Made by a program: the position numbers and the translations under genes | Notes under the pieces: model-generated | Databases searched by the model: none | What the model was told of the DNA's origin: nothing | What the model saw: the letters and a program-made list of their open reading frames with translations, nothing else | Shown here: positions 2,028 to 51,147 of the stretch, piece after piece | Numbering within the stretch: position 1 is the first letter of the stretch | How the letters are laid out: each line of letters begins with the position of its first letter | Virus record (IMG/VR): IMGVR_UViG_3300020580_000002 | Location: 1-58,391 of that record | Strand: one strand, 5' to 3' | Source: a virus | Lineage: Duplodnaviria > Caudoviricetes | Length of the DNA stretch: 58,391 nucleotides

Positions 2028-2170
2028 GACCCAGTACTGCACTTTTACAAAAATCTAGTTGACACATTTTGTCAGTGGTGATAGAAAGGCACCGTAGTCG
2101 TCCTGCCAAAACGTGCGTTGAAGGGGTGGGGCCACTCCACGGCCCCATTCCGCTCCTGTGGAGGGAGAAC

Positions 2171-3070
2171 ATGGTAAGCGAATACCTCATAGACCAAATC
2201 CTGCCACGCCGCGAAGTGCACCTTATAGCTGGTCCAAGCGGTGCCGGTAAGAGCACCTGGGCACTTCAAACACTTGTTGAGCAGTGGCAGGTTGGCAAAG
2301 AGGTACTAGGCTATAAGAGCTTTCCTGTCCCATGGCTGTACGTCTCAGGCGACCGCTCCATGGAGAGCGTTGAGCGCACCCTTAGGCGCATTGGCATCCC
2401 ACGCAGCAACATCAACGTTTTCAGTTGCATAGACACTCGTGTGTTCAACATTGGCAGCATCATTAAGAAGGCTATGACTGCCCCTGTACCACCGCGCTTC
2501 TTCTTTTTCGAGGGTTTCATCTCGCTCATGCTCGCCAGTGGCCTCAAGAATGAGTACAAAGACGTATCGTGGTTCCTCACCGGGCTGACCGCTACCTGCA
2601 AGGAGCAAGACATCACCATCCTTGGCTCTTGCCACGCCCCCAAAATGAAGAGTGATTCTTGGTACATGAACCCTCGCGAACGCATCCTTGGCAGTGCAGG
2701 TTGGGGTGGGTTCTGCGAAACTATTATCGTCATAGAGCCAGTTACTAGTACTGGGAACGTGGCAGACGCTTTGCCCCTTCGGCGCTTATATGTGCTGCCC
2801 CGCAACGCAGCCGAAAGGTCCATTGACCTAGTCTTCGACACCAACGGCCGGTTAGTAGAGTCCGAAGCTGAATTGTACACAGCTCTCTTCACAGCCTTCT
2901 TAGGCAAGTTCGCCGCTGGCGCCACTTTCAAGGCAGAAGCAGCTTACGAAACCCTCACGGACGCTGGTCTGTCTAGAGCCACCGTGACACGTTACCTGGA
3001 CAAAGCTGTCGCCGACGGCCGACTATCGAAGGTCGCACATGGAACGTATGCTGTAAACAGGGTAGCGTGA
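2171..3070 (+). CDS. RecA-like (AAA_25/RepA-type) helicase with C-terminal HTH
   Basis: Walker A GPSGAGKS; H-x-x-K and ILGS motifs; C-terminal LSRATVTRYL; ATG at 2171 after GGAG. Confidence 0.75.
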   Translation: MVSEYLIDQILPRREVHLIAGPSGAGKSTWALQTLVEQWQVGKEVLGYKSFPVPWLYVSGDRSMESVERTLRRIGIPRSNINVFSCIDTRVFNIGSIIKKAMTAPVPPRFFFFEGFISLMLASGLKNEYKDVSWFLTGLTATCKEQDITILGSCHAPKMKSDSWYMNPRERILGSAGWGGFCETIIVIEPVTSTGNVADALPLRRLYVLPRNAAERSIDLVFDTNGRLVESEAELYTALFTAFLGKFAAGATFKAEAAYETLTDAGLSRATVTRYLDKAVADGRLSKVAHGTYAVNRVA

Positions 3071-6621: not shown

Positions 6622-6857
6622 CGCCCCCCTTTCGAATCATCCTTGCAGCCAATATCATCGTCGCTGACGTGCACAGTGATAGGCGCGCTGCTCTCAATCA
6701 AAAACGTCACGCGCTTGCCGCCACGATAGGCAGCAGCCCAAAACACACCCGTGTCCATGCGCTCTAATCTGAACAGGTCAGCCGTGACCGCCACATCATC
6801 CACCTGGCCAGCAGCATCCAAGCGCACAGCACTCCACACCTTATCGGCCATGCTCAC
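6618..6857 (-). CDS. Hypothetical protein
   Basis: Coupled to the ATPase start. Confidence 0.6.
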   Translation of the reverse strand: MSMADKVWSAVRLDAAGQVDDVAVTADLFRLERMDTGVFWAAAYRGGKRVTFLIESSAPITVHVSDDDIGCKDDSKGGR

Positions 6858-11847: not shown

Positions 11848-12183
11848 TCACGTCACACTCTGCGCCGCAAGCTGACTCATCCTGCGCTCAGCCAGCTTCC
11901 ACCCCACCATCAAGCACAAAATAGTGAGCTGCACCGCCCCCTTCTCAGCCCCGCCAGGTTGCTTCTGTGCAGCACTCACACCAGCATCAAGGATAGCCCT
12001 GAACTCCCTGCTCCCCTTGATAGCCTCCATGACCGCATTGGGCTCCTCATCCACCTTGCCAGAGCCAACCATGGTCACCATCCACTTCACCAGCTCGTCA
12101 GCGTAGCCATCCACCAGCTCAGCAGTGAAGTTGCCAACGATAGGCAGCATGTTCGCATCACTCCCACCCCAGTCAGCGCTCAT
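11848..12183 (-). CDS. Helical hypothetical protein, GWxxA family (paralog 2)
   Basis: MLPIVGNFT..LMVGWKLA; ends SVT. Confidence 0.7.
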   Translation of the reverse strand: MSADWGGSDANMLPIVGNFTAELVDGYADELVKWMVTMVGSGKVDEEPNAVMEAIKGSREFRAILDAGVSAAQKQPGGAEKGAVQLTILCLMVGWKLAERRMSQLAAQSVT

Positions 12184-12515
12184 GTCACACTCTCCACACC
12201 CTCACTAAGGGCCAGGGCAGCAGCTCTCCACCCCAGCACAAAGGTTAGTATCAGACTCGCGGTCACTGCATCCTGACTACTGCTGCCACGTTCTACCAAC
12301 CCACTCATCATGCGGCTGAACTCATCATTGCGGCCCATTCTCTCTACCGCCCTCTGCAACGACAGCGCAGGTTCACCAGTGGCATCTCTGCTCCCTGCAT
12401 CACAGCTATCCATGATGCTTATGCAGTAGGGCATCAACTCCCTGCCAATCCTGGTCAACACCTCATCCGTCAGCATGCCAAAAGGCAGCATCCTGTCACT
12501 CTCATTCGTACCCAT
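12180..12515 (-). CDS. Helical hypothetical protein, GWxxA family (paralog 3)
   Basis: MLPFGMLT..FVLGWRAA; ends SVT. Confidence 0.7.
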   Translation of the reverse strand: MGTNESDRMLPFGMLTDEVLTRIGRELMPYCISIMDSCDAGSRDATGEPALSLQRAVERMGRNDEFSRMMSGLVERGSSSQDAVTASLILTFVLGWRAAALALSEGVESVT

Positions 12516-12565
12516 CGCAGCACCCCCACATAGCACCACTGTCACTAGGCGCTATGCTGGAAGCA

Positions 12566-13114
12566 CTACTCGTCAGTAGCGACCTCAGTCAACGTCCCCA
12601 TCACCGGTGGCTGCTGCCCCTGCGCAAAGTTATACCAGTAGTAATACCGCCCCTGCGCAGAGCGATACTGATACGTACTCACCACCAGCACCACACTCCA
12701 CTCATTAGCATCAGCATCAGCACATGAATAGTCACTCACTGCCGTTTGCGTCCTGCGATTGATCGTCGCATACGCATAAGTGACACTAGTTGCACCAACC
12801 TGCTGGCACCCACTCAACAGCAACCCATCGAAGTTGAAGTCATACAACGCCTGCGCCGGGTCAGCAGCATAGTGCCTCACCATGCCGCACCAGATGTTGC
12901 TGCCATCCACTGCCTGACCACACACGCTAGACTGCGCCGCCACGCCATCAAACGACGCGAGCGACCGCACCGCATAAAGAGTGCTCAGCCCAGTGTTGAG
13001 CTGCCAACTCAGCGTGAAGGTATGTTGAGTACCTACACTCTGAGCCATCAGCAACGGCACAGCAGCCACAGCCAACAACGCGACAACAGCCACGGACATC
13101 CCCTTGGTTCGCAT
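12566..13114 (-). CDS. Secreted beta-rich protein
   Basis: Sec signal MRTKGMSVAVVALLAVAAVPLLMA-QS; GAGGAGGT SD; 4 Cys. Confidence 0.8.
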   Translation of the reverse strand: MRTKGMSVAVVALLAVAAVPLLMAQSVGTQHTFTLSWQLNTGLSTLYAVRSLASFDGVAAQSSVCGQAVDGSNIWCGMVRHYAADPAQALYDFNFDGLLLSGCQQVGATSVTYAYATINRRTQTAVSDYSCADADANEWSVVLVVSTYQYRSAQGRYYYWYNFAQGQQPPVMGTLTEVATDE

Positions 13115-13160
13115 GTTGTATTACCTCCTCAGTTGATTTGTACTGCTACTGCCCGAACCC

Positions 13161-13424
13161 TCAGTGCAAATCAGCACGCTCGCTTCGCGTACCGTACAGC
13201 CTGTCTCCGTATTGCTTGCCATCCACAAACGTCCTCCAGCATGCATGCCCACAAAAGGCTGGCAGCGCTTTCACCACCCTTTGCGAGAGCTGCACCTCAC
13301 CCGGCACCAACATCCAGAACTGATACAACGTGTCAGGCACCGCGACGCACCCCTCACACTTCTCACCACGCACGTTATCAAAAGCCCTCATGCACTTCGT
13401 CAGTGCCATCACGTTTTCCATCAC
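13161..13424 (-). CDS. Small Cys-containing protein
   Basis: CEGC and FCGHAC motifs. Confidence 0.55.
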   Translation of the reverse strand: MMENVMALTKCMRAFDNVRGEKCEGCVAVPDTLYQFWMLVPGEVQLSQRVVKALPAFCGHACWRTFVDGKQYGDRLYGTRSERADLH

Positions 13425-13566
13425 CCACCATCCTCACCGAAGCTGCGGCAATCGCCTTCGCAACACTCACATCTTCCGTCATAGCCACAAAGTCTCCCTT
13501 GGCATCCAGCACTTCCATGCCATTCACATGCCACGGGAGCCTATCGGCTGCAAGCGCATTTCTCAT
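13378..13566 (-). CDS. Hypothetical protein
   Basis: LPW..IAAA pattern recalled from small phage proteins. Confidence 0.5.
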   Translation of the reverse strand: MRNALAADRLPWHVNGMEVLDAKGDFVAMTEDVSVAKAIAAASVRMVGDGKRDGTDEVHEGF

Positions 13567-13706
13567 GACTCACCACCCTCTCACCACGCATACTCCCCTC
13601 ACCAACCCGACGTTCGCACCATTCTGCTGCGCTGCTCTGCCATCTGACGCTGCTGACCACGCGACCGCAATCAGCCACACAGCCAGCATCACCACATCGC
13701 TCCAGC

Positions 13707-13898
13707 TCATGGCTGCCTCAGGCGATACAGCAGCACCTTCGCCACATCCAGCGCATTCTCTTCGTCGTCTGTCTCAGGTTGAAACAGGTCAACATGCGCT
13801 TGCAGCATGTCAATTAGACAACCCTGCTCCTCTGTGTTCATGACCAGCACATGTACCTTACAGGCCACGCCAGTCTCGTCGAGTATTTCAGTCATCAC
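13707..13898 (-). CDS. Hypothetical protein
   Basis: Coupled to the upstream gene. Confidence 0.55.
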   Translation of the reverse strand: MMTEILDETGVACKVHVLVMNTEEQGCLIDMLQAHVDLFQPETDDEENALDVAKVLLYRLRQP

Positions 13899-14152
13899 GG
13901 TGTCGCCTCCAGATACGCATTAAGCGCCTTCACCAAGCGCTTCACCTGTTCGTCGCTGAGATAGGCAGTAGCATACCCACCCTCAACACCCACCTGAATC
14001 AGGCAGGCATTCTCAAATGCATCACCACGCGCGCCAATCTCACCTTCAGACACATGCACCTCTTCGAGAGGCACCAGTGTCTTGACGGTCTTGTGAAAGT
14101 TAGCCCTGAGCATGGTGCTCATCGCTGTCGTCACCTTCTTCCAACTGCGCAT
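13895..14152 (-). CDS. Hypothetical protein
   Basis: Packed leftward ORF. Confidence 0.6.
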   Translation of the reverse strand: MRSWKKVTTAMSTMLRANFHKTVKTLVPLEEVHVSEGEIGARGDAFENACLIQVGVEGGYATAYLSDEQVKRLVKALNAYLEATP

Positions 14153-14285
14153 CTTCCCGCTCTGTGTCGAAAATCAGTTGACCCTCAGGGCAGAAAGGGT
14201 GCTCACCAAGGCCATCAAACAGAGCGTCAGCGCACCTCTTGCAGCGTTGCGCGTGTTTCTCAAGGTCGGAAACTGTCTCACTCAT
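14100..14285 (-). CDS. Small Cys/His protein
   Basis: HAQRCKRC..FCPEG; GAGGT SD. Confidence 0.55.
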   Translation of the reverse strand: MSETVSDLEKHAQRCKRCADALFDGLGEHPFCPEGQLIFDTEREDAQLEEGDDSDEHHAQG

Positions 14286-14553
14286 AGCAGCACCTCACCA
14301 GGCATACTCGCGTGCATACATCTCAACGTCAAGCACAAAAGGGAACTCCCAATAATACTCATTGCCAACCACCCCAGCGAACCTATACGACTCGGCCGTC
14401 CGGTACCAAATGAACCCAAACCGCATGTCAATCAGCATGTCATCCCCCTTTGAGCACCGCTTAGGACACAACGCGAGCGCAGCACTCACCAAGCGCCTGC
14501 CACAACCTATCAGGCCAGGCGCCAGTCAGGGCTGAGCACCCTTGTGACGAACC

Positions 14554-14811
14554 CTACGCGACGCGATTCTGATACCACTGCACCCCACGCTCAGTGAGCT
14601 TGTAGCAATGGCCCGACTTATCAAGCAGCCCATAGCGGACCAACCCGCTCATGAGTTCTTCGAACTGGTCTAACCTCATGACGGCCTGGAGCGCCGCATA
14701 CATCACCCCACCTGGTGCTCCAATGTCAGGATTGGCCACACTCACCGCCTCAATGACGGCATCTACGATGTTAGCCATCACTTTTGCCTGTTGAGCATTC
14801 GTATTCACCAT
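14554..14811 (-). CDS. Winged-helix-like small protein
   Basis: LVRYGLL..YKLTERG winged-helix C-terminal pattern; GGGGG SD. Confidence 0.7.
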   Translation of the reverse strand: MVNTNAQQAKVMANIVDAVIEAVSVANPDIGAPGGVMYAALQAVMRLDQFEELMSGLVRYGLLDKSGHCYKLTERGVQWYQNRVA

Positions 14812-14824
14812 GTATCCCCCTTTC

Positions 14825-15900
14825 GAATCAATGTGAGAGAGCTAGTGCCCTTTTGCCGCATCATGCTTCACCAGCTCTCCCCAAGGCTGCCTTCGCAGCA
14901 TTCAACCCACCTGTCACATGGGCTCAATGCTGCGAGTGTGTCGTTCCTAGAAACACATGCGGTCTGCGCACTGTAACTCAGCACGCTCCTGAACACACTC
15001 ACAGCCACATAGGGGAATCCGCGCACAGGTATCACCGCTTCTCTACACCGCTGTTCTTGGCTCAGCATCTCAGCACATGCGGGTTGCCACTCGCACACAC
15101 GTCAACGCATCATCGCCGCGACTTGTCGGTTATGAGCTAGCGTCCATTCCTGTACTTGTGCTGAACACCGTAGCCCGTTCTGGAGTGCGTCCGGTAGCGT
15201 TCCTCATGCTTCAACCAACTCCGCATGCGCGAAAACTCGTCCCGGTTATCGGCCTAGCAGGACCACCTGTCTCTCTTTACTCATTGGCAACAACAAGTTA
15301 GACAGGCTGTCATGTGCGCCATCAGCTTGCGGAACTCTCACCTGCGTGAGTTAGTCCAAATCGCATTCCCTTACCCGCGTCACCGCGAGCAGGATTATTC
15401 AAGCACACACTCTCTGCATTGACTCTCCAGTGTGGAGCCTTTGATTCGCCAGGGCAGCCGAGTGGCCACCCATGAACGAATGCTCAACACCATCAGCCGT
15501 TTACGGCCATCGAGTGTCCGTTTGCGCGGGGGTCTTGCTGCATGGTGCCAAGCGCCTAGTCGTGACCGCTTCGCTTGACGGTGTAGTGCGACTGAATCCA
15601 GTCGCGTCCGTCACTCACACAGCAGTTGCCGCTACCATCTTGTCTGCCACCCTCACGGCTTGTCTAGGGCCGTTCACCTTCATGCGCCAAGTCAAGAACG
15701 CACTCCGGCGGTGACGAGTCTCTGTTACCTCACGACGCTCCAACCTACCGCTTCGCCTCACCAGCAATCTAGGCCCTGTGTTGGTCAAAACCCACGACAC
15801 AGGCGGTGATGGTCAAACCCACGTCACCAAGCCAACCATGCCAGCGTACGGCCCACGGGAGCGTGCGAGACAGAGCAAGTACTGGTACTCGCCCTCTCTT
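14825..15900 (-). ncRNA. Candidate large structured non-coding RNA (~1.05 kb)
   Basis: No credible ORF in a gene-dense genome; many hairpins and nested or long-range helices; G-U pairs and GNRA loops read properly on the minus strand. Confidence 0.65.
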
Positions 15901-15917
15901 GCAAACTCACGCGCGCG

Positions 15918-15956
15918 AAAAAGAGAGCAGGAGCAGCACAATCGCCGCCCCTGCTC
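15918..15956 (-). terminator. Intrinsic terminator after 15964-16146
   Basis: GAGCAGGGGCGGCG-ATTG-TGCTGCTCCTGCTC followed by TCTTTTT on the minus strand. Confidence 0.7.
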
Positions 15957-15963
15957 AAGCGTA

Positions 15964-16146
15964 TCATGCTCGCAAGTAAGCATTTACGCCAACAATCAGC
16001 GCCTTGCCCTGAACGTTCAGGCCCGATGGCTGATTGCCATGCGTTGTTGCCACCACTAGCGTCTTTCCAGACTTCGACGCAACGGGCGTCTGCATCTGCA
16101 ACGTGATGGTGATGGTGCCAGCCTTCTCGTCAATGACAGTCTTCAT
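15964..16146 (-). CDS. Conserved small protein (SKSGKT.VVATT.G motif); first gene of the leftward arm
   Basis: GGGGAG SD; followed by a terminator. Confidence 0.8.
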   Translation of the reverse strand: MKTVIDEKAGTITITLQMQTPVASKSGKTLVVATTHGNQPSGLNVQGKALIVGVNAYLRA

Positions 16147-16634
16147 GATGCTTCTCCCCTATGTCGGCCTGCCGACAATGCCGTGCTGGCTAGGTTGGCT
16201 CCCCTGCCAGCGGCGAAAAACGCGAACGCAATGCACCGTGCAAAGCGCTTGCCAAACCGCAAGTCGTTGAAAACAAACGTGCCTAGTACTCTTAGTACTC
16301 GCGAAAGTGACCGTTTTTGTCTTTATATCAAACTGAGAAACGCGGCAATTCGCGGTGAAAACGCCCGCAAGTGTATGAAAACAAACGCGCAAAAAGTGTC
16401 AGTACCAAAACGTCACATTTTGTCTGGTACTACACTGTTGTAAAATAGACACGCGCGCGTACCCTTTTTGCGGCCGCGCGACTCTCGCGTGCGCGTGCGC
16501 GCATGGGTACCCTTACGGTGCTTTCCGAGCCTACGCCTCACTCTAACGGTTACGACGATTTTTTCATCCTGGTGTATGCAAAAAATTTTGGAATGTTCTT
16601 GCAGTACCCCCATCGGGTATGGTATAGAGGTGCT

Positions 16635-16958
16635 ATGCCAAGGTGGCCAGTTCGTACGGTGGTCGAGCGGTTCATGGCGCAGGTCGAGGTAGCAGGAACT
16701 TGTTGGCTATGGAAGGGTAAGCGGCACAAATACAAGGGTTACGGGTACTTTAAGCTGACTACCGGTAAGTCAGGCGGCAAACATATCATCGCTCATCGCT
16801 TTGCGTACATGCAGTTTGTCGGTCCGATACCTGACGATAGACCAGTTTTGGACCACTTGTGCTTAGTGAGAAGGTGCGTTAACCCGTCGCATTTAGAGCC
16901 TGTGACTGTTGCAGAAAATAACCGAAGGGCAGCACGGGTGAGGCATGGGTCAGTCTGA
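16635..16958 (+). CDS. HNH homing endonuclease
   Basis: CWLW.G..GYG..AHRFAY..LDHLC..CVNPSHLEPVT..EN; ATG at 16635 after GAGGT. Confidence 0.9.
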   Translation: MPRWPVRTVVERFMAQVEVAGTCWLWKGKRHKYKGYGYFKLTTGKSGGKHIIAHRFAYMQFVGPIPDDRPVLDHLCLVRRCVNPSHLEPVTVAENNRRAARVRHGSV

Positions 16959-17225
16959 GGTAGGTGCCAATGGGTGGTCGGTGCCGTCCAAGGTCCACCA
17001 GTCGCAAAGCCATTTCGGGTCGACACCGCTGACGTCAGTCTGCTCACTGCGAAATATCTCGCACACCCCAAAGCCGTCAACCTGGCGGGTGTAGAAGTGG
17101 GCACAGTTCTCGCATCGTTGCTCTGAGCCACGAGGCGCTTTGCGATATCCTACCTGCTCAGCACTGAACTTCTCGGGCCGGTCAGCCACCATGTCGTCAT
17201 AGTCCCGTTTGGTGATCTTCGACAT
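16950..17225 (-). CDS. HiPIP-like four-cysteine protein
   Basis: GY..RCENCAHF..CEIF..VDPKWLCDWW resembles HiPIP Cys spacing; GGAGG SD. Confidence 0.65.
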   Translation of the reverse strand: MSKITKRDYDDMVADRPEKFSAEQVGYRKAPRGSEQRCENCAHFYTRQVDGFGVCEIFRSEQTDVSGVDPKWLCDWWTLDGTDHPLAPTSD

Positions 17226-17430
17226 CGCGTGCCTCCAGACCTTCCCTACGCCCTGCGGCATGCTGCTCCTCACCGGTCGACTTCAACAACTCGGTGAGCC
17301 TGCTGTTCACAATGACGTGCAACTCTTTGATAGCGTATTTGTTGTGGATGGAGATGAGCAACGTGAGAATGGAGAGGATGGTCGGTGGCGCCGTCGTGAT
17401 GAGCGCTGCCACCGTTGTGGGTTCAAGCAT
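17197..17430 (-). CDS. Small single-TM protein (holin-like)
   Basis: N-terminal TM followed by ELHVIVNSRLTELL. Confidence 0.6.
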   Translation of the reverse strand: MLEPTTVAALITTAPPTILSILTLLISIHNKYAIKELHVIVNSRLTELLKSTGEEQHAAGRREGLEARDVEDHQTGL

Positions 17431-17635
17431 CTTTGACTACTCTCGGTCTGCCGGGCCACCTTGCTGCTTGTGCTCTCGCCAGGTTTTGCGCGCACGCTTC
17501 TAGCTTCGCAGGCGACTTCGACCGGCCGCCCTTCGCACCAAGCGCGGCCATCTTCTCCTTGCGCTTAGCGATGCGGTCGTTGATGACCTCGGGAATGAGC
17601 GCCAGTTGTCTAGGGTCCAATTTCGCCATTGACAC
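17423..17635 (-). CDS. Small basic DNA-binding protein
   Basis: GAKGGRSKSPAK..A..N..GRP motif; GAGGAG SD. Confidence 0.65.
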   Translation of the reverse strand: MSMAKLDPRQLALIPEVINDRIAKRKEKMAALGAKGGRSKSPAKLEACAQNLARAQAARWPGRPRVVKDA

Positions 17636-17657
17636 CTCCTCACAAAGCGCATACTCT
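17629..17657 (+). promoter_or_regulatory. Putative sigma70 promoter giving a leaderless mRNA
   Basis: TTGACA-17-TACTCT; ATG 6 nt downstream at 17664. Confidence 0.5.
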
Positions 17658-17663
17658 CACCAC

Positions 17664-18095
17664 ATGTTTACCCCGTCAAGCGAAAAGGTTCGCGCGGCCG
17701 AAGCCTACCTCGAAAAGATTCGCACCCGCAAACGCTCCTGGGCCACCACCCACCCTAGCGGTCACACGCGCACCAGAAAACCCCTGTGGCGTTCGCTCCC
17801 GAAAGAGTGGCACGCCGAAGCTGAAGCGCACCTGAACCGCCTGGTTTGCAAATACTGGAGCGAACACGGCCACGGCCCATCGCAACACAAGCACGCTTCG
17901 CTCATCGGCAATGTGGTGCAGTACATCCTCTACTGCCGCATGTCGCACCGCAAGCTGTCGCTGCTTTGGAAATTCTGGAACGCCCGCAAAGTCGCATCTG
18001 GCGGCGCCAACGTGCGCAATCCCCAAGACCGCACCGGCTTTACCCCACGCGACGCTAAGCACCGCGCTAGCCAAGGAAACCTACAAGGAATATAA
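17664..18095 (+). CDS. Basic hypothetical protein
   Basis: In-frame ATG just after the promoter-like sequence. Confidence 0.6.
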   Translation: MFTPSSEKVRAAEAYLEKIRTRKRSWATTHPSGHTRTRKPLWRSLPKEWHAEAEAHLNRLVCKYWSEHGHGPSQHKHASLIGNVVQYILYCRMSHRKLSLLWKFWNARKVASGGANVRNPQDRTGFTPRDAKHRASQGNLQGI

Positions 18096-18099
18096 ACGC

Positions 18100-18129
18100 T
18101 TGACAACGCTTAGCAACCGGGCGTACTTT
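18100..18129 (+). promoter_or_regulatory. Putative sigma70 promoter of the packaging operon
   Basis: TTGACA-18-TACTTT; ATG at 18137 with no SD. Confidence 0.45.
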
Positions 18130-18136
18130 TCGAACC

Positions 18137-18385
18137 ATGGACGCTCCTAAGTGCCCAAACTTCAAACGCGGTGCCTGCGAACGCAACGACCCCGTAATCA
18201 TCTCTGACGACGGCGACCACTGGCAATTCGGCTGCCGTACCTGTCGCTGCGGTTACGTAGTCACCAAGCCCGTCGGCAAAGGACGTGCCAAGTACGAACT
18301 CGAAATGCAGCGCCGACGCTCGCTAGCTATGACCCCTCGCGACCGTGTCGTTTTCCATGCCCCATCAAAAGGCTGGGCCGCCTGA
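18137..18385 (+). CDS. Zn-ribbon protein
   Basis: CPN..C and CRTC motifs. Confidence 0.65.
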   Translation: MDAPKCPNFKRGACERNDPVIISDDGDHWQFGCRTCRCGYVVTKPVGKGRAKYELEMQRRRSLAMTPRDRVVFHAPSKGWAA

Positions 18386-18456
18386 TGCTAACGTCGGTAC
18401 ATGCTAGAGTTGGACTTTGCCGGACAAAGTGCTTCACAAAACTGAGGTAAACCGCC

Positions 18457-19014
18457 ATGGACGACACCTTCACCGCCGCCGCAGCGCAAATCGCCGCCAG
18501 CGCTGACGCCCCTGCTAACGCACTAAAGAAACGCCAGCCACTCACCGAGGAACAAAAAGAAGTCCTGCGCAAGCGCCTCGACGTTGCCCGCGCCAAGCGC
18601 AGTGCTCTCGCCAAAGCGGGCCTGCTACGCGCTAAGGCACCGCGCAAAGTTATGAAACCTGCGCCCCAGCCCGTCACCATCGCACCATCCAACACCTTCA
18701 CCATGTGGTCCAACGACGAATGGCGCGACGCTCCCTACGCCGTCGCCCTCCAGCGCCTTACCGACCTCACCCAGGACCGCGAGCGCGGTGCCTCTCTCGT
18801 CCAGCAAAAGCGCGACTCCGAGCGCATCCCCGCCACCTACAACTGCATCGTCTGCAAAAAACCAGTCCAAGACGGCCGCTGGATATGGAAAAACGACCGC
18901 CGCGACGAAGTCACGCAGCTCTACACCAGCGACGTCCTATGCTCACAGATTTGCCACGAACGCTTTAGCAACAACGCAAAGTTTTACTTAGACCGCGCCA
19001 AGGGAGTGTCGTGA
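18457..19014 (+). CDS. Hypothetical Zn-finger protein directly upstream of TerL (possible small terminase)
   Basis: CIVC..CSQIC; GTGA overlap with TerL; the role is positional only. Confidence 0.6.
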   Translation: MDDTFTAAAAQIAASADAPANALKKRQPLTEEQKEVLRKRLDVARAKRSALAKAGLLRAKAPRKVMKPAPQPVTIAPSNTFTMWSNDEWRDAPYAVALQRLTDLTQDRERGASLVQQKRDSERIPATYNCIVCKKPVQDGRWIWKNDRRDEVTQLYTSDVLCSQICHERFSNNAKFYLDRAKGVS

Positions 19015-20756
19015 ACTTTCGTAATGCAGTAACGTGGCTCAGCAAGCTAAAAATAAAACACCGCGACACCGGCCGCACCGTTCCCTTCCGCCTAAACGCC
19101 AACCAGCAAAAAGCCATGAAAGCGCTCCAAGAACAATACGACGAAATCGGCATGGTACGCACCATCATCCTCAAAGCCCGGCGCGTCGGCATGTCCTCCC
19201 TCATGGATTCCCTCGGCCTGCTACACTGCCTCGCGCGACCTCAAGCCCACGCAAAAATAGTCGCTCACTTGCAGTCAACGGCCGAGGGCCTCTTTCGCGT
19301 CCCTCGCGACCTGGTCGGAGGACTCCCTTATGGAAACACCGCAGTCGACGTACGCACCCGCCGCATCATCGTCCCCCACCCCGACGGTGATTCAATCCTT
19401 GACATTTCGACAGCAGGTTCTGTCATCGGTGGACGTGGCCTTACGCTATCATTTGTGCACCTGTCAGAGGCCGCTTTCTTCCCAGGAGAGGACTCCTTCT
19501 TGTCACTGCTGCCTGCTGTCTCAGACGGCGACGACACCTTTGTCGCCATTGAATCTACTGCGAACGGCCGTGTCGGGCCTGGTAAAGCGTTTTATGACTT
19601 CTGGAATAGCGCTGTGGCCGGAAAGAACGGATACGTCCCCATCTTCCTCCCCTGGCTCGACGACCCCGCCTGCATTAGACCCGAGGAAGAAGCAGGGGAT
19701 GCCCCTGCCTCTGACATCGAGCGAGAGCTTATGCGCGACTTCCACGCCACTAAAGCACAAATCGCGTGGTTCCGCCGCACCCTAGAAGACAAGTGCCAAG
19801 GCCTGTTGCCAAAAATGATGCAGGAATATCCGCATACGCCCGAAGTCGCATTCGTCGCATCGGGCGACCCGGCCTTCCCGCGCGAGGAGATAATCTATGT
19901 CCGCTCCACTGTCGAAAAACCGCTCCGGCGCGGTCGTGTTCGCTGGGATGGGAACGCTAATCGCGTTCTCTTTGAGGACGTCCGCAACGGACTGCTGCAC
20001 ATCTGGCGCGCTCCTGAACCCAAACACCACTACTACGTCGGCGCTGACGCCGCCACCGGCATCGAAGACGGCGACTTCGCCGCTTATGTGGTCTTCGACG
20101 GCACCACTGGCGAGCAAGTAGCCCGCTACGCCGACCGCATCCACCCTGAGCACCTTGCGGACCAGCTCAACCTAGTCGGCCACTACTACAACAAAGCGAT
20201 GGTGAACATTGAGCTGACCGGCAATTTAGGCAGACATGCACTGAAGGTGCTGCGCGATGACCACCGCTACACCAACTTCTACATCTGGAAAGGCAAAGAC
20301 GACCGCAAACCCGGTGCTCGCACCGGCATGCCCCTGATCGGCTGGGAAACAACCTCAGCCAGCAGGCGCAAACTCTTCGACACTTTCAGAGCGGGCGTGC
20401 GCAGCGGCATGCGCGATGAGGAGGGTGGCCTGGCCATCTACGACGATGCCCTCGTGCAACAAATGGACAACGCTACATTCTACGAAGGCTTTATGTGGGA
20501 GGTCGAGCGAGGCAACGATGACATCCTATTTGCAGCAATGCTGGGCGTCATCGCCATGTCTCAATGGCCCCCGCCGCGCGTCACCAACCGCTCGCGCAAA
20601 CCGGACATCGACGACGAGAGAGCGTACAACCCGCTCTCTGCTATGGGGATTAGACCACAGGAACCAGTCGAACTAAGCCTACGCCGCCACTACCAACTCA
20701 CCATGAAAGCCTTACGTACCGCCACCGGCAAGCCCACAGGCTTGGAGGGCATATGA
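19011..20756 (+). CDS. terL: Terminase large subunit
   Basis: LNANQ, Walker A LKARRVGMSS, GRGLT, Walker B VHLSEAAF, IESTANG; nuclease GADAATG and NDDILFA. Confidence 0.95.
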   Translation: MNFRNAVTWLSKLKIKHRDTGRTVPFRLNANQQKAMKALQEQYDEIGMVRTIILKARRVGMSSLMDSLGLLHCLARPQAHAKIVAHLQSTAEGLFRVPRDLVGGLPYGNTAVDVRTRRIIVPHPDGDSILDISTAGSVIGGRGLTLSFVHLSEAAFFPGEDSFLSLLPAVSDGDDTFVAIESTANGRVGPGKAFYDFWNSAVAGKNGYVPIFLPWLDDPACIRPEEEAGDAPASDIERELMRDFHATKAQIAWFRRTLEDKCQGLLPKMMQEYPHTPEVAFVASGDPAFPREEIIYVRSTVEKPLRRGRVRWDGNANRVLFEDVRNGLLHIWRAPEPKHHYYVGADAATGIEDGDFAAYVVFDGTTGEQVARYADRIHPEHLADQLNLVGHYYNKAMVNIELTGNLGRHALKVLRDDHRYTNFYIWKGKDDRKPGARTGMPLIGWETTSASRRKLFDTFRAGVRSGMRDEEGGLAIYDDALVQQMDNATFYEGFMWEVERGNDDILFAAMLGVIAMSQWPPPRVTNRSRKPDIDDERAYNPLSAMGIRPQEPVELSLRRHYQLTMKALRTATGKPTGLEGI

Positions 20757-48426: not shown

Positions 48427-51147
48427 TTATCTCGCGATAGTTGCGGTTAAGCCAGTTTTCCATTCTTGCATGCCTCCTAAGTTGTCTTCAGCGAAGGGAG
48501 CAGCGTTGTCGCCCACGCTGACTTCGGCGCCAATGGTCAGCCCTTCGAGCTCGTCGATGGGCGAAGTCATCACGTCGTAGAGTGTTTGGGCGTATCGTCC
48601 CACGTGCTCATCCGGCACGTCGGCAATGATCGCGTCGTGGACAAGCAGGCAGAGCCAGGGGGCACACTCGGGCAGACGATGAAGCAGGCGCGCGACGATG
48701 ATGCGCTGGATGGCGGCGGCGGCGCTTTGGGGCTTGAAGGCCACGGCGCGCTTGGCGTCGTCGCCAAATTCCCACGATTGGCGGCGTGCGTTCCAAGCAT
48801 ACAGGCTGTAAAAACGATGGCGCAGGTTGAAGCCATTTTCGAGAGCCTTGTTCGCGTGCGCCAGCTCCACGGTGGCTTTCTGCCAGGCACGCACATCGAG
48901 GCCGGGCTCGCTGCCCAGGTAGAATTGCTGCAGCTTACCTGCTTCTTTCTCAGTGGCGAAGTCATCGGGGTATTCTTCATGAATGCGCCTCTTAGTACCT
49001 AAGTAGTTACTAAGGTGAATGACGCGCTTAATTTTCTCGTAGTCGGCTGGCCAGGTGCGCTTCGAGGCTTTGCATAGCTTGGTCAAAGTTGCGTCGTCTA
49101 AATCCAGCGAGATTGGCTGACCGTGAAGTGCCGATGTAAGCCAGCCATGCACTCCCGACTTTGCTAAGCGCATATACCGTGTCGAGTTCGCGAAGTACCC
49201 GACCAAGACGGCTTCTATCGCTGCAGAATCGCCCTCGACTATCTTGTGGCCCGGCGTGGCGACGATCATGCGTCTGAACAGGTGCGCGAGGTCGCTTCGC
49301 TTGGGGATGGTTTGCAGATTTTGATTGCGGCATGAGAGCCTCCAAGTGCTGGGATGAAACCCGAGAGTGTAGTGTACGCGGTCGTCAGCGTCCAGCGGCC
49401 ACTTGTAGGTGCTGACGAGTTTCCAACGTTCGCGGCATGCGAGAATGTGTTTGAAGACCGGGTACTTTTTGACGTAGTGTGAGAGCGTTTTCTTGTCCGT
49501 AGCGAGCGCTTCTTCATCGGTCTCCTTGGTGGTGTCGCGTGGCGGGAGTTTGATGCCCAGGTGTTTAGCGAGGCGCTGGATTTGCTGCCAGGAGTCTACG
49601 TTGAATTCCAAGCGGCGCATGTAGCGGTAAGGCGTCGCGCTCGCGAGTTTCGCTGCACTCTCGACGTAATGGAGCGAAGAACCGTCATCGGTTCTGAGCG
49701 ACTCCTGATTTGCGGGCACCGGTTCGTGCAGGTCGGCCAGTAGCGCGCCTAGTTTGTCTCCGACTGCTGCCAGTATTTCCTGCTGCGCTGGCGGTAGCAG
49801 TGGTAGTTCCTCGACACCTGCCATGTCCTTCGGGGGGCGCTTCCACATTTTGACAGGTCGGACGGCGTCAGGTACCAGGGCTTGCACCTTCGCGTTTTCG
49901 ATATCCCATTCGGCTTCAAGGCGGGCCATGAACTCAGCTTGGTAGGCGCGGTCGATGCGCAGGCCCTTTTTGCCCATGCGCTGGAGGACCGGGTCGAAGT
50001 CGGTGCAATGGCGCTCAAATGATGACCACCGCCCCTGAGCGATGAGAGCTGCGCGCGTACCTAAGTAGCAGTCGTTTCCAATCGCGTTGTCGAGCGCGTT
50101 GTACCGGCCGGGTTCCGCCGCGTTCAAGTGCTTCCATGGCGGGCCTGCATAGAAGAACGGTGCTACCAGTCCTAACCCTTTCCGTAAATCGCTCTGCAAC
50201 CAATGCCACGCCCACATCCCCGACACAACCTTTGCAGGGATAGATAGACCGGCCGCAGCAAGGCGGCGCGTGTCGTAGTGGTTGTCTGCCCATTCGACTA
50301 CCTCCTCTGCGCGAGAGAGGGCGTCGCGCATGATTGATATGTATGGTTCTTCCCACGGGAACGAACAGGCAGTCCCTTGGCGCACGCTGAACCCTGCGCG
50401 GACGATGGTGTACGATGGCCCCTTCTCGTCCAGGTCTTCTTCGTCTAGCGAGCTGCTCTCTGGCGTTTCAATGTCAACAAACAGGCTCCCAATTCGAGGG
50501 CCCGCGCTAGCAACGTACGCTTTAAGATCAGCAGGAGGTACATCGACCAGCAGCGTATAAGCAGTGTCATGGTAGGTGCCGTCTGCAATCTGTCCAGCAC
50601 GCTGGAGTGCCCAGAGGACGACCGGCACGAGACTTTGCTTTCCACGCAAGAGGTAAGCCGGATGAAAAGTTGGTACAGCCGGTATTCCATATGGAGTAGG
50701 TAGTACATAGCCTGCTCGCTCCTCAATGCCCGAGACGCCGCAGACGCGCCGGAGGGCCACGTTGCCCATCGGGACGATGACGCGGGGGCGGCGCTGTTCG
50801 ATTAGCTCATCCAGATTTGGTCGGCAGTGCTCGATGGCCGTGACCGCTTCAGGGTGCGGTCGGTCCATCCAACCTAGATATTTCGGGGCGCAGAAGATGC
50901 TGTTGGCAACGGTCAGGTCGTTGCGCTGCATACCGCCGCCTGGCATCAACGAGAGGATGCGGTCAAGGAGCCTACCTGCTGCTCCGGCGAAGACTCGCCC
51001 GGCCGCTAGCTCATCCTTCCAGACGCTGTCCCCGACCAACATGACACCACTGGAGCCACTCCCATCAGGGCCAATGAAGCGCTGACCATGCGCTGAGTGG
51101 GGACAGGAATCGCAAAACTTACCGTTAGGGGGCATAGAGGTCTGCAC
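48427..51147 (-). CDS. Family A DNA polymerase with N-terminal family-4 UDG-like domain and 3'-5' exonuclease
   Basis: UDG: CDSC, NSIFCAP, TFHPAYLLR; ExoI FVDIET, ExoIII YNALD; TWRLS..NLQTIP; motif A GDSAAIE; motif B KRVIHLSNYLG; motif C VHDAI. Confidence 0.93.
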   Translation of the reverse strand: MQTSMPPNGKFCDSCPHSAHGQRFIGPDGSGSSGVMLVGDSVWKDELAAGRVFAGAAGRLLDRILSLMPGGGMQRNDLTVANSIFCAPKYLGWMDRPHPEAVTAIEHCRPNLDELIEQRRPRVIVPMGNVALRRVCGVSGIEERAGYVLPTPYGIPAVPTFHPAYLLRGKQSLVPVVLWALQRAGQIADGTYHDTAYTLLVDVPPADLKAYVASAGPRIGSLFVDIETPESSSLDEEDLDEKGPSYTIVRAGFSVRQGTACSFPWEEPYISIMRDALSRAEEVVEWADNHYDTRRLAAAGLSIPAKVVSGMWAWHWLQSDLRKGLGLVAPFFYAGPPWKHLNAAEPGRYNALDNAIGNDCYLGTRAALIAQGRWSSFERHCTDFDPVLQRMGKKGLRIDRAYQAEFMARLEAEWDIENAKVQALVPDAVRPVKMWKRPPKDMAGVEELPLLPPAQQEILAAVGDKLGALLADLHEPVPANQESLRTDDGSSLHYVESAAKLASATPYRYMRRLEFNVDSWQQIQRLAKHLGIKLPPRDTTKETDEEALATDKKTLSHYVKKYPVFKHILACRERWKLVSTYKWPLDADDRVHYTLGFHPSTWRLSCRNQNLQTIPKRSDLAHLFRRMIVATPGHKIVEGDSAAIEAVLVGYFANSTRYMRLAKSGVHGWLTSALHGQPISLDLDDATLTKLCKASKRTWPADYEKIKRVIHLSNYLGTKRRIHEEYPDDFATEKEAGKLQQFYLGSEPGLDVRAWQKATVELAHANKALENGFNLRHRFYSLYAWNARRQSWEFGDDAKRAVAFKPQSAAAAIQRIIVARLLHRLPECAPWLCLLVHDAIIADVPDEHVGRYAQTLYDVMTSPIDELEGLTIGAEVSVGDNAAPFAEDNLGGMQEWKTGLTATIAR

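What the first reader, a model, noticed from the sequence alone, without database searches (positions are those of the whole stretch)
14825..15900. ~1.05-kb highly structured non-coding region: candidate new large phage ncRNA
Seen: this is the only long ORF-poor stretch in a tightly packed genome. On the minus strand it folds extensively. Perfect 9-bp long-range complements occur at 15858-15866 with 14981-14989 (joining the two ends) and at 15698-15706 with 15182-15190 (both appear to lie in hairpin loops, kissing-like). A domain-closing helix pairs 15835-15845 with 15537-15546, and a 14-bp helix pairs 14992-15005 with 14929-14942. There are nested helices (TGACGG/CCGTCA around GCGACTG/CAGTCGC; CCTGTCT/AGACAGG) and GNRA-capped stems (CTCGCG-GTGA-CGCGGG; G-GCAA-C twice). 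GAAGCGGT occurs three times. Known: phages carry large RNAs such as GOLLD and ROOL that have long-range pseudoknots. I saw no signature of tmRNA, RNase P or group I/II introns. Inference: a large functional RNA at the start of the leftward arm.
Basis: partly seen in the sequence, partly recalled or inferred. Interest (0 to 1): 0.85.

Follow-up and report, generated by a model that had tools for sequence, protein, structure and literature searches.

The report
New large structured phage RNA
The 1.15-kb gene-free stretch of this soil phage encodes a previously undescribed, very large, intricately folded non-coding RNA that turns up in soil RNA libraries, which adds a new family to the few giant phage RNAs known.

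Summary
The finding holds. Window 14812-15963 carries no gene: all six frames have stops, differences from relatives show no codon periodicity, and indels are rarely multiples of three. It matches no Rfam 15 family.

Only three other distinct sequences carry it: two IMG/VR phages and one soil metagenome contig. In each it lies directly downstream of the same 60-aa early gene.

A four-sequence alignment gives a minus-strand consensus fold of 250 pairs in 40 helices. 95% of cells are paired, and 73 pairs keep pairing through changes on both sides. Column shuffles give 28 ± 4.5 such pairs, and slid partners give 3-16. The plus strand folds much worse (-128 against -229 kcal/mol).

Contigs from all four soil metatranscriptome runs I laid, each from a different study, match 100%. 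Two are stand-alone contigs of 922 and 840 nt lying wholly inside the region.

Single-sequence folding energy is only modestly better than shuffles (z = -2.3).

Best reading: a new family of large (about 0.85-1.15 kb), stable non-coding RNA of the same kind as GOLLD and ROOL, made early from the leftward operon. Its function is unknown. A trans-acting scaffold is the favoured role, and a cis-acting leader is the main rival.

The parts
16147..16470 (-). Likely promoter and operator region of the leftward early operon. It holds two 26-nt direct repeats, at 16257-16282 and 16365-16390.
   Evidence: The repeat pair was found. The motif occurs only twice in the 58,391-nt window, with 0 expected from shuffles. 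One sigma-70-like site lies at 16444-16417. The promoter assignment is an inference.
15964..16146 (-). 60-aa early gene directly upstream of the RNA. It is co-conserved with the RNA in all relatives.
   Evidence: tblastn identity is 98% in L020, 65% in L013 and 56% in L014. It belongs to a widespread family of about 63 aa with 151 hits and no Pfam domain. One RNA-library contig covers 15969-16192.
15918..15956 (-). 5' hairpin of 13-14 bp followed by a U-run. It looks like an intrinsic terminator or attenuator, placed just after the stop codon of the 60-aa gene.
   Evidence: The terminator scan found it. It is helix 2 of the consensus fold, with 2 covarying pairs. The U-run is present only in the window and L020.
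15732..15916 (-). Domain 1. It has a closing helix (15916-11 with 15738-32), a long 19-bp hairpin (15908-15859), and a branch that carries a variable insertion.
   Evidence: These are helices 3-8, with 12 pairs changed on both sides. The domain is 186 nt in the window, 150 nt in L014 and 106 nt in L013.
15491..15731 (-). Domains 2 and 3, the most conserved core. They include the invariant loops AACAGA, AGGUGAACGGCCCUA, GUGGCAG and AGCGGCAAC.
   Evidence: Alignment A3 has 85% mean column identity. These are helices 9-20, and helix 15 alone has 7 covarying pairs. Covariance model R1 finds only the family members. Invariant runs are listed.
15158..15490 (-). Domain 4. A long-range 9-bp helix (15490-82 with 15166-58) closes it. 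It holds the variable insertion at 15319-15403 and the invariant loop GUUGCCAA at 15291-15284.
   Evidence: These are helices 21-32. Helix 21 has 5 covarying pairs out of 9. The insertion is replaced in L020, absent in L013 and different in L014. The invariant loop is shown.
15023..15155 (-). Domain 5. Its stems vary with compensation around the invariant loop GUGGCAACC (15090-15082). That loop is complementary over 7 nt to the domain-4 loop, so the two are a candidate kissing pair.
   Evidence: These are helices 33-39, with 14 pairs changed on both sides. Loop invariance and complementarity are shown. The kissing interaction is an inference, because invariant columns cannot covary.
14812..15022 (-). 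3' domain. It holds the 14-bp helix (15005-14992 with 14942-14929) and three more hairpins. A possible outer helix (15018-11 with 14820-13) would cover the Shine-Dalgarno sequence of the next gene.
   Evidence: Comparing the window with L020 over 63 predicted pairs, 10 changed on both sides, 5 changed on one side and 0 were broken. Two compensatory swaps lie in the 14-bp helix. The Shine-Dalgarno helix has no covariation.
14935..15859 (.). The span covered by 100%-identical contigs from soil RNA libraries.
   Evidence: X3 covers 14935-15856 with a whole 922-nt contig. X5 covers 15012-15851 with a whole 840-nt contig. X7 and X9 cover pieces within 15002-15859. Contigs cannot show the strand.

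Best explanation
Window 14812-15963, read on the minus strand, encodes a new family of very large, highly structured non-coding RNA in a soil podovirus-like phage. The genome is complete at 58 kb and has terminal repeats.

**Shown**
- The stretch is non-coding.
- It is conserved in the phage's few relatives, always directly after the same 60-aa first gene of the leftward early operon.
- It has a conserved fold of about 40 helices in six domains. Many base changes are compensatory, and hairpins of variable length are inserted at fixed sites.
- It is present in soil metatranscriptome assemblies.

**Inferred**
- It is transcribed from the leftward early promoter, through or past the hairpin that follows the 60-aa gene.
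- It accumulates as a stable species of at least 0.85-0.92 kb (about 15859 to about 15002), possibly after processing at the long 5' hairpins.
- It acts in trans as a structural RNA, either as an RNA-only assembly or as an RNP scaffold or decoy during infection. This is the way GOLLD and ROOL are thought to act. The invariant complementary loops GUUGCCA and UGGCAAC could provide a tertiary or intermolecular contact.

My confidence that it is a real, conserved, structured RNA is about 0.9. My confidence that it acts in trans rather than as a cis leader is about 0.45.
For: **Non-coding**
- All six frames have stops.
- Mismatches by codon phase are flat (p = 0.04-0.75), whereas the terminase control gives 5e-57 and 5e-40.
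- Indels that are multiples of three number 0 of 8, 4 of 28 and 2 of 18.

**No known family**
- No Rfam match was found.
- ARAGORN finds no tRNA or tmRNA.
- No reverse transcriptase is present.

**Conservation**
- Between the window and L020, 15001-15950 is 94-100% identical in 50-nt bins (most bins 98-100%), apart from the replaced segment within about 15301-15400. The flanks are only 60-94% identical.
- The core is 80.6% identical to L014 over 294 nt, while the neighbouring protein is 56% identical.

**Structure**
- RNAalifold on alignment A2 gives -228.75 kcal/mol, 250 pairs, and 73 pairs changed on both sides.
- Twenty-five column shuffles that were refolded give -137.7 ± 6.5 kcal/mol and 28.2 ± 4.5 such pairs, with a maximum of 36.
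- In the pair-count tool, 95.0% of cells are paired, against 85.9 ± 0.7% in shuffles and 32-46% with slid partners. None of 500 shuffles reaches the observed value on any of the five measures.
- Pairs from the window-only MFE fold hold at 65-67% in L014 and L013, against 32-43% with slid partners.
- The 3' domain has 10 double changes, 5 single changes and 0 broken pairs out of 63.

**Strand**
- The plus-strand consensus fold reaches only -127.94 kcal/mol.
- Each sequence has 28-46 G·U cells, against at most 8 A·C cells.

**Expression**
- Six of the 13 listed soil runs are RNA libraries that hold part of the region.
- All 4 RNA runs that were laid, from 4 studies, give 100%-identical contigs inside 14935-15859.
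- A diverged variant in X3 carries two compensatory swaps, 15684/15701 and 15685/15700, in helix 12.
Against: - Only four distinct sequences exist, and two of them are near-identical. Formal per-pair significance of the R-scape type is therefore out of reach.
- RNAalifold favours covarying pairs by design. This was controlled only by shuffles and slid partners.
- Single-sequence stability is modest. The core has z = -2.30, and 300-nt windows inside the core average z = -0.27, against -0.63 ± 1.78 outside it.
- Logan contigs cannot show strand, transcript ends or expression level, and RNA libraries can contain DNA. Contig ends at 15002-15012 and at 14935 coincide with places where strains diverge, so they may be assembly breaks rather than RNA ends.
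- A terminator-like hairpin lies between the promoter-proximal gene and the RNA, and no promoter for the RNA itself was found.
- Nothing tested bears directly on function. The trans-acting scaffold role rests on analogy alone.
Confidence: 0.7

Rival explanations
1. The RNA is a cis-acting leader of the early-left operon. It would be a giant structured 5'/intercistronic region that controls read-through of the hairpin after the 60-aa gene. It could also control processing, stability or translation of the downstream early genes, for example by sequestering the Shine-Dalgarno sequence of the next gene.
For: - It lies between the promoter-proximal gene and the rest of the operon.
- A terminator-like hairpin with a U-run sits at its 5' edge.
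- The predicted outer helix of the 3' domain pairs 15018-15011 with the GGGGGA ribosome-binding site at 14820-14813.
- No separate promoter or 3' terminator was found.
Against: - At about 1.1 kb with about 40 helices, it is far larger than any known bacterial or phage leader (from my own knowledge).
- The downstream gene is not conserved. The 85-aa gene is found only in L020, yet the RNA core is kept in L014 and L013.
- The Shine-Dalgarno helix has no covariation support.
- RNA-library contigs of 840-922 nt consist of the core alone.
Confidence: 0.2
2. The region is a replication-origin element. Its transcript would be a structured pre-primer in the manner of ColE1 RNA II, or the DNA itself would be an origin at the junction of the two divergent arms.
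For: - It sits about 300-1500 nt from the point where the leftward and rightward arms diverge.
- The transcript is G-rich, with 321 G against 234 C in the core.
Against: - There are no iterons or AT-rich unwinding stretch. GC content is 53-60%, and the only direct repeats inside the region are short two- or three-copy families.
- Covariation that preserves G·U pairs on one strand points to selection on RNA folding.
- The G-richness is shared by the whole leftward arm.
Confidence: 0.05
3. The region is a self-splicing intron or another mobile ribozyme inserted behind the 60-aa gene.
For: - It is large, structured and present only in one small clade.
- Other phages with the 60-aa homologue have ordinary genes at that position.
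- An HNH endonuclease gene lies about 540 nt away, at 16503-16958 on the plus strand.
Against: - There is no group I or group II match even at E <= 10 or in the relatives.
- The 60-aa gene is full length when compared with 37 homologues and ends where they end, so no exon is interrupted.
- No reverse transcriptase is present.
Confidence: 0.03
4. The region holds decayed genes or a cluster of small ORFs, and its conservation comes from recent common descent or recombination.
For: - Short ORFs of 56-76 aa exist on the minus strand.
- The 98-100% identity to L020 could reflect a recent exchange.
Against: - There is no codon periodicity.
- Indels do not come in multiples of three.
- The stop-free stretches lie at different positions in each relative.
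- Pairing is kept through 73 double changes.
Confidence: 0.02

Closest known systems
[quoted passage not shown]
   Same: - It is a very large non-coding RNA carried by phages and prophages. Many members exceed 800 nt, and its function is unknown.
- It has a conserved part and a variable part.
- Its fold has many stems and uses loop-loop contacts. (From passages of PMC12286853.)
- The RNA here is likewise phage-borne, about 0.85-1.15 kb and multi-domain. It has variable insertions and a pair of invariant complementary loops.
   Different: - There is no match to any Rfam model, even at E <= 10. That GOLLD is among the Rfam 15 models is from memory.
- GOLLD often lies near tRNA islands, whereas this genome has no tRNA.
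- The RNA here sits in an early operon behind a conserved 60-aa gene.
- Oligomerisation was not tested.
ROOL RNA (rumen-originating, ornate, large)
   Same: - It is carried by phages and prophages, is large and complex, and has no known protein partner.
- It can be as abundant as 16S rRNA in one strain (passages of PMC12286853).
- The RNA here assembles from soil RNA libraries at summed contig depths of 7-17.
   Different: - There is no Rfam match. ROOL's presence in Rfam 15 is from memory.
- ROOL is about 580-660 nt and lies near tRNA islands.
- There is no sequence or fold similarity that I could detect.
Structured leaders and antitermination RNAs of phage early operons, such as HK022 put RNA and the phage P4 CI RNA processed from the early leader (recalled, not checked in any call)
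   Same: The position is promoter-proximal in an early operon and next to a terminator-like hairpin. The RNA may be processed out of the operon transcript.
   Different: The known examples are tens of nucleotides long, not about 1 kb. None has a fold of 40 helices. No homology was tested because no models for them were available to me by name.
Candidate structured RNAs predicted from IMG/VR (PMC10690425)
   Same: That work used the same data source and the same covariation-based logic.
   Different: Its candidates are 30-151 bases long, with a mean of 67 (passages). It therefore does not describe an RNA of this size as one unit.

Membership tests
GOLLD / ROOL / OLE / HEARO / raiA and all other Rfam 15 families | A match to the family's covariance model at or above its gathering score. 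| tested here: not met
   There are 0 matches at gathering score in the 58,391-nt window. In 14300-16500 there are 4 matches at E <= 10 (best E 0.31), all far below their gathering scores and none to a large-RNA family. There are 0 matches at E <= 1 in L013, L020 and L012.
GOLLD / ROOL | Frequent location next to tRNA genes or tRNA islands in phages and prophages. | tested here: not met
   ARAGORN finds 0 tRNA or tmRNA genes in the whole window. The feature as described comes from passages of PMC12286853.
GOLLD / ROOL (works-like test) | Homo-oligomeric RNA-only assembly (nanocage). | not testable with these tools
   The only hint is a pair of invariant complementary loops, GUUGCCA (within 15291-15284) and UGGCAAC (within 15090-15082). 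Testing needs native gels, mass photometry or cryo-EM.
Group I / group II self-splicing introns | A conserved catalytic core detectable by covariance models, and an interrupted host gene. | tested here: not met
   No intron model matches at E <= 10. The upstream 60-aa ORF is full length against 37 homologues. No reverse transcriptase is present. No joints appear in the RNA contigs.
RNase P RNA / tmRNA | A covariance-model or ARAGORN match. | tested here: not met
Conserved structured non-coding RNA (generic) | Non-coding, with base pairs maintained by compensatory changes above controls. | tested here: met
   Searches show it is non-coding. Searches give 73 of 250 pairs with changes on both sides, against 28 ± 4.5 in shuffles and 3-16 with slid partners.
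Conserved structured non-coding RNA (generic) | Transcribed as a discrete RNA of defined strand and ends. | tested here: inconclusive
   It is present in contigs of all 4 RNA libraries that were laid, from 4 studies. Contigs give no strand and no reliable ends. The strand is inferred from G·U asymmetry.
Intrinsic terminator / attenuator leader | A GC-rich hairpin followed by a U-run, conserved in relatives. | tested here: inconclusive
   A 14-bp hairpin at 15956-15925 is followed by UCUUUUU in the window and in L020. The hairpin is kept in L013 and L014, but the U-run is not.

The most novel reading that the evidence does not exclude
This is the founding member of a third, unrelated class of giant phage RNAs. 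Like GOLLD and ROOL, it would self-assemble into an RNA-only quaternary structure. The invariant complementary loops (GUUGCCA and UGGCAAC, with a second invariant GGCAAC) would act as intermolecular kissing contacts. The RNA would be made at the very start of infection and would accumulate far above the phage's own mRNAs. At about 0.85-1.15 kb it would be among the largest natural non-ribosomal structured RNAs of bacteria or phages.
Probability: 0.15. Interest if true: 0.92.

Novelty: new variant of a known kind. Interest (0 to 1): 0.8.

Why it matters
Very few bacterial or phage non-coding RNAs longer than about 500 nt are known, apart from rRNA, group II introns, GOLLD, ROOL and OLE. Each has led to unexpected biology, most recently RNA-only nanocages (PMC12286853, passages).

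This region offers a new, unrelated family with three useful properties:
- It has a detailed fold backed by covariation.
- It has a defined genomic setting: it follows the first gene of an early operon in an uncultured soil phage lineage whose terminase is under 28% identical to any cultured phage.
- It appears in soil RNA libraries from four separate studies.

That makes it a ready target for structure determination. It also allows a direct test of whether large phage RNAs share a common mode of action.

Tried and rejected
**Searches for more family members**
- blastn against 50,697 phage records found no match.
- The 85-aa neighbour gave no related loci.
- The 60-aa neighbour gave 10 loci. 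None has DNA similarity to the region by blastn or nhmmer. None matches model R1. All have ordinary ORFs directly downstream.
- Three pattern scans of viral contigs each returned the same 3 records.
- The metagenome scan returned 3 loci. Only L020 is real. L019 and L021 share nothing beyond the 21-nt pattern, apart from one further marginal 54-nt match (E 0.04) in L019.
- Two genome-contig scans gave 0 and 1 loci. The one locus, L022, lies on a 71%-GC contig and shares nothing else with the window, so it is a chance hit.
- Relatives cannot be drawn for a virus record.

**RNA-library coverage**
- In the read-laying output, 12000-14934 and 16193-19000 had no cover apart from two short low-identity pieces. 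X3 had no cover at 15857-15968.
- Similar stops of RNA contigs in several studies (15851-15859; 15002-15012), with no loose ends, are at most a weak hint of RNA ends. I laid no DNA run beside them.

**Other checks**
- The three GAAGCGGT copies are not conserved in L014 or L013, so I dropped them as a feature.
- No antisense target was found in the phage. The only repeats of 13 nt or more elsewhere in the genome are a shared ribosome-binding-site context and one 13-mer.
- The fold of the 60-aa protein has no PDB match at E <= 0.001 among 77 listed, so it gives no clue to RNA binding.

**Literature and tools**
- Four literature searches found no description of such an RNA. I read only listings and the passages cited.
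- Supplementary files of papers were closed, so PMC10690425's tables could not be checked.

Full report
**Setting**

The window is a complete 58,391-bp virus record with direct terminal repeats. Its genes include:
- a terminase (19011-20756);
- a P22-like portal and an SU10-like adaptor;
- a family-A DNA polymerase fused to a UDG-like domain;
- two AAA ATPases and an HNH endonuclease.

The terminase is under 28% identical to that of any cultured phage among 920 matching records. Genes run leftward from about 16146 and rightward from about 16500. The finding lies in the leftward arm. It sits between a 60-aa ORF (15964-16146, minus strand) and an 85-aa ORF (14554-14811, minus strand).

The 1,152-nt gap has stops in every frame: 21, 9 and 25 on the minus strand, and 6, 13 and 8 on the plus strand. 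It contains the longest stretch of the genome without an arm-strand ORF of at least 55 aa.

Exact 9-mers with an inverted partner are not unusual, though: 6 were found, against 2.4 ± 1.9 in shuffles.

Folding energy is only modestly special:
- The full gap folds to -487.3 kcal/mol on the minus strand and -391.8 on the plus strand.
- The core 15001-15963 has z = -2.30 on the minus strand and -1.16 on the plus strand against 60 dinucleotide shuffles.
- Most 300-nt windows in the core are unremarkable. The exceptions are the 5' hairpins (z = -6.2 and -3.9) and the 3' end (z = -3.9).

Energy alone would therefore not have carried the claim.

**Relatives**

No phage record matches by blastn. Through the terminase I found two related IMG/VR phages:
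- L014, which is the same as L012 and L018 (99.99% identical to L012 over 7,000 nt);
- the fragment L013.

A metagenome pattern scan added L020, a 1,867-nt contig that is 87.6% identical over 14639-16569.

All further scans returned only these sequences or chance hits. Covariance model R1, built on the core, finds only these in 21 sources totalling 237 kb.

In every relative the element directly follows the homologue of the 60-aa gene. That protein is 98% identical in L020, 65% in L013 and 56% in L014. The 85-aa gene is found only in L020.

Ten other phages carry the 60-aa homologue. They have ordinary ORFs at this position and no similarity to the element.

**Conservation pattern**

Between the window and L020, 15001-15950 is 94-100% identical in 50-nt bins (most bins 98-100%). 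The exception is a replaced segment within about 15301-15400. The flanks, including the 85-aa gene, are 60-94% identical.

The core is 80.6% identical to L014 over 294 nt and 75% identical to L013.

Differences show no codon phase (p = 0.04-0.75), whereas the terminase control gives 5e-57 and 5e-40. Indels that are multiples of three number 0 of 8, 4 of 28 and 2 of 18. Several indels are whole hairpins inserted at fixed sites, for example two extra hairpins in L014.

**Structure**

RNAalifold on the four-sequence minus-strand alignment A2 gives -228.75 kcal/mol, 250 pairs, and 73 pairs in which both sides changed while pairing was kept.

Controls:
- **Column shuffles.** I ran 25 shuffles that keep gap and identity patterns, each refolded. 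They give -137.7 ± 6.5 kcal/mol and 28.2 ± 4.5 such pairs, with a maximum of 36. That puts the observed fold at z = -14 for energy and z = +9.8 for pair count.
- **Pair-count tool.** 95.0% of 951 cells are paired, against 85.9 ± 0.7% in shuffles and 32-46% with partners slid by 1-3 columns. Slid partners give 3-16 pairs with double changes. None of 500 shuffles reaches the observed value on any of the five measures.
- **Window-only fold.** A fold predicted from the window alone, and so blind to the relatives, keeps 65% of its pairs in L014 and 67% in L013. Slid partners keep 32-43%.

Long-range helices are well supported. The helix 15490-82 with 15166-58 has 5 covarying pairs out of 9. The helix 15155-49 with 15029-23 has 4 out of 7.

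In the 3' domain (15022-14812), the window and L020 differ at 25 paired positions. Of 63 pairs, 10 changed on both sides, 5 changed on one side and none are broken.

The fold therefore spans the whole gap, in six domains (see parts).

**Strand**

The plus-strand consensus fold reaches only -127.94 kcal/mol with 202 pairs. The minus-strand fold uses 28-46 G·U pairs per sequence and has at most 8 A·C cells. The folded molecule is therefore the minus-strand transcript, which has the same sense as the leftward genes.

- The 14-bp helix is supported by two swaps in L020: 14999/14935 goes from AU to GC, and 14998/14936 goes from GC to AU.
- The 'end-joining' 9-mer has 3 mismatches in 9 in L020.
- The 'kissing' 9-mer has no compensatory change and overlaps helices 12 and 24, which do covary.
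- The 'domain-closing' helix is broken in L014 and L013, and covarying helices 7 and 15 replace it.

A better tertiary candidate emerged. The invariant loop GUUGCCAA (15291-15284) caps helix 28. The invariant loop GUGGCAACC (15090-15082) caps helix 38. They are complementary over 7 nt, while the stems beneath them vary with compensation. Because both loops are invariant, this pairing cannot yet be tested by covariation.

**Expression**

Thirteen soil runs from 13 studies hold part of 14500-16500, and six of them are metatranscriptomes. I laid four of the RNA runs on 12000-19000 at 80% likeness or better. All four gave 100%-identical contigs inside the element:
- X3 covers 14935-15856 with a whole 922-nt contig at depth 17.4.
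- X5 covers 15012-15851 with a whole 840-nt contig at depth 7.
- X7 gives three pieces within 15002-15859.
- X9 gives four pieces within 15012-15527 (three 100% identical, one with a single difference).
- X3 also covers the 60-aa gene (15969-16192).

X3 contains diverged variants of 15618-15756 as well. One of them carries paired changes, 15684 with 15701 and 15685 with 15700, that swap two base pairs of helix 12. More family members therefore exist in soil RNA.

Caveats:
- Contigs show presence only. They do not show strand, ends or level.
- RNA libraries can hold DNA.
- Some contig ends coincide with points where strains diverge.

**What it is**

It matches no Rfam 15 family in the window or the relatives. 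The genome has no tRNA or tmRNA and no reverse transcriptase. There are no iterons. No gene is interrupted, because the 60-aa ORF is full length against 37 homologues.

The best-supported reading is a new family of large, stable, structured non-coding RNA. It is expressed from the leftward early operon and is of the same kind as GOLLD and ROOL: phage-borne, over 0.8 kb, multi-domain, abundant and of unknown function (passages of PMC12286853). It has no homology to either and no tRNA neighbourhood.

Its mode of action is inferred, not shown. I favour a trans-acting structural RNA (about 0.45) over a cis-acting leader (about 0.2).
- **For the trans reading:** the downstream genes are not conserved while the core is, and the core assembles alone from RNA libraries.
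- **For the leader reading:** a terminator-like hairpin with a U-run lies at 15956-15918, and a possible helix covers the next gene's Shine-Dalgarno sequence.

Origin, intron and decayed-gene readings are unlikely for the reasons given under rivals.

**Novelty**

Four full-text searches found no description of such an RNA. I read only the listings, plus passages of three papers. The large IMG/VR screen for structured RNAs reports motifs of 30-151 bases only.

I rate it a new family within a known, loosely defined kind.

**Limits**

- Only four distinct sequences are available.
- There is no strand-specific read evidence.
- The host is unknown.
- Function is untested.

Noticed in passing
window 15964-16146 (-): The 60-aa protein upstream of the RNA belongs to a strongly conserved family of about 63 aa. 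The family has 151 hits at E <= 0.001, mostly on short metagenome contigs, and carries the invariant motifs SGKTLV and THGN. It has no Pfam or PHROG family. The AlphaFold model (pLDDT 83) has six beta strands, and no PDB chain matches it at E <= 0.001.
   Followed up: partly
window 16257-16282 and 16365-16390: Two 26-nt direct repeats, 85% alike and 108 nt apart, lie in the region between the divergent arms. The 23-nt core motif occurs nowhere else in the genome, with 0 expected from shuffles. They may be operators or duplicated promoter elements of the leftward operon.
   Followed up: partly
window 14816-14830 and 6625-6639: An identical 15-nt context (minus strand TGATTCGAAAGGGGG) precedes the start codons of the 85-aa gene and the 471-aa AAA ATPase gene. 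This is a shared translation-initiation region.
   Followed up: no
Read-laying run X3, window 15489-15756 and 15976-16068: One soil RNA library holds diverged variants of the RNA core and of the 60-aa gene, about 85-90% alike and with loose ends that run on unlike the window. Further relatives of this module are therefore present there. The sequences could not be retrieved.
   Followed up: no
window 48427-51147 (-): A 906-aa protein combines an N-terminal UDG-superfamily domain (E = 5.5e-18) with a family-A DNA polymerase domain (E = 1.7e-25).
   Followed up: no
window 16950-17273 (-): A 107-aa ORF gives a weak match, just above the cut-off, to the high-potential iron-sulfur protein family (HIPIP, 24.2 bits against a cut-off of 22). 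This is unusual for a phage.
   Followed up: no
window 2069-3070 (+): A 333-aa plus-strand ORF lies inside the otherwise leftward arm. It matches AAA_25 (E = 1e-10) and, weakly, an AbiEi_4 HTH domain. It overlaps minus-strand ORFs that have no family match. The gene orientation there may differ from the simple two-arm picture.
   Followed up: no
L014 6150-7407 (-): The relative's copy of the RNA carries two extra perfect hairpins, inserted in domain 4 just before hairpin 22, and a longer, different 3' region. Its downstream genes are unrelated to those in the window.
   Followed up: partly
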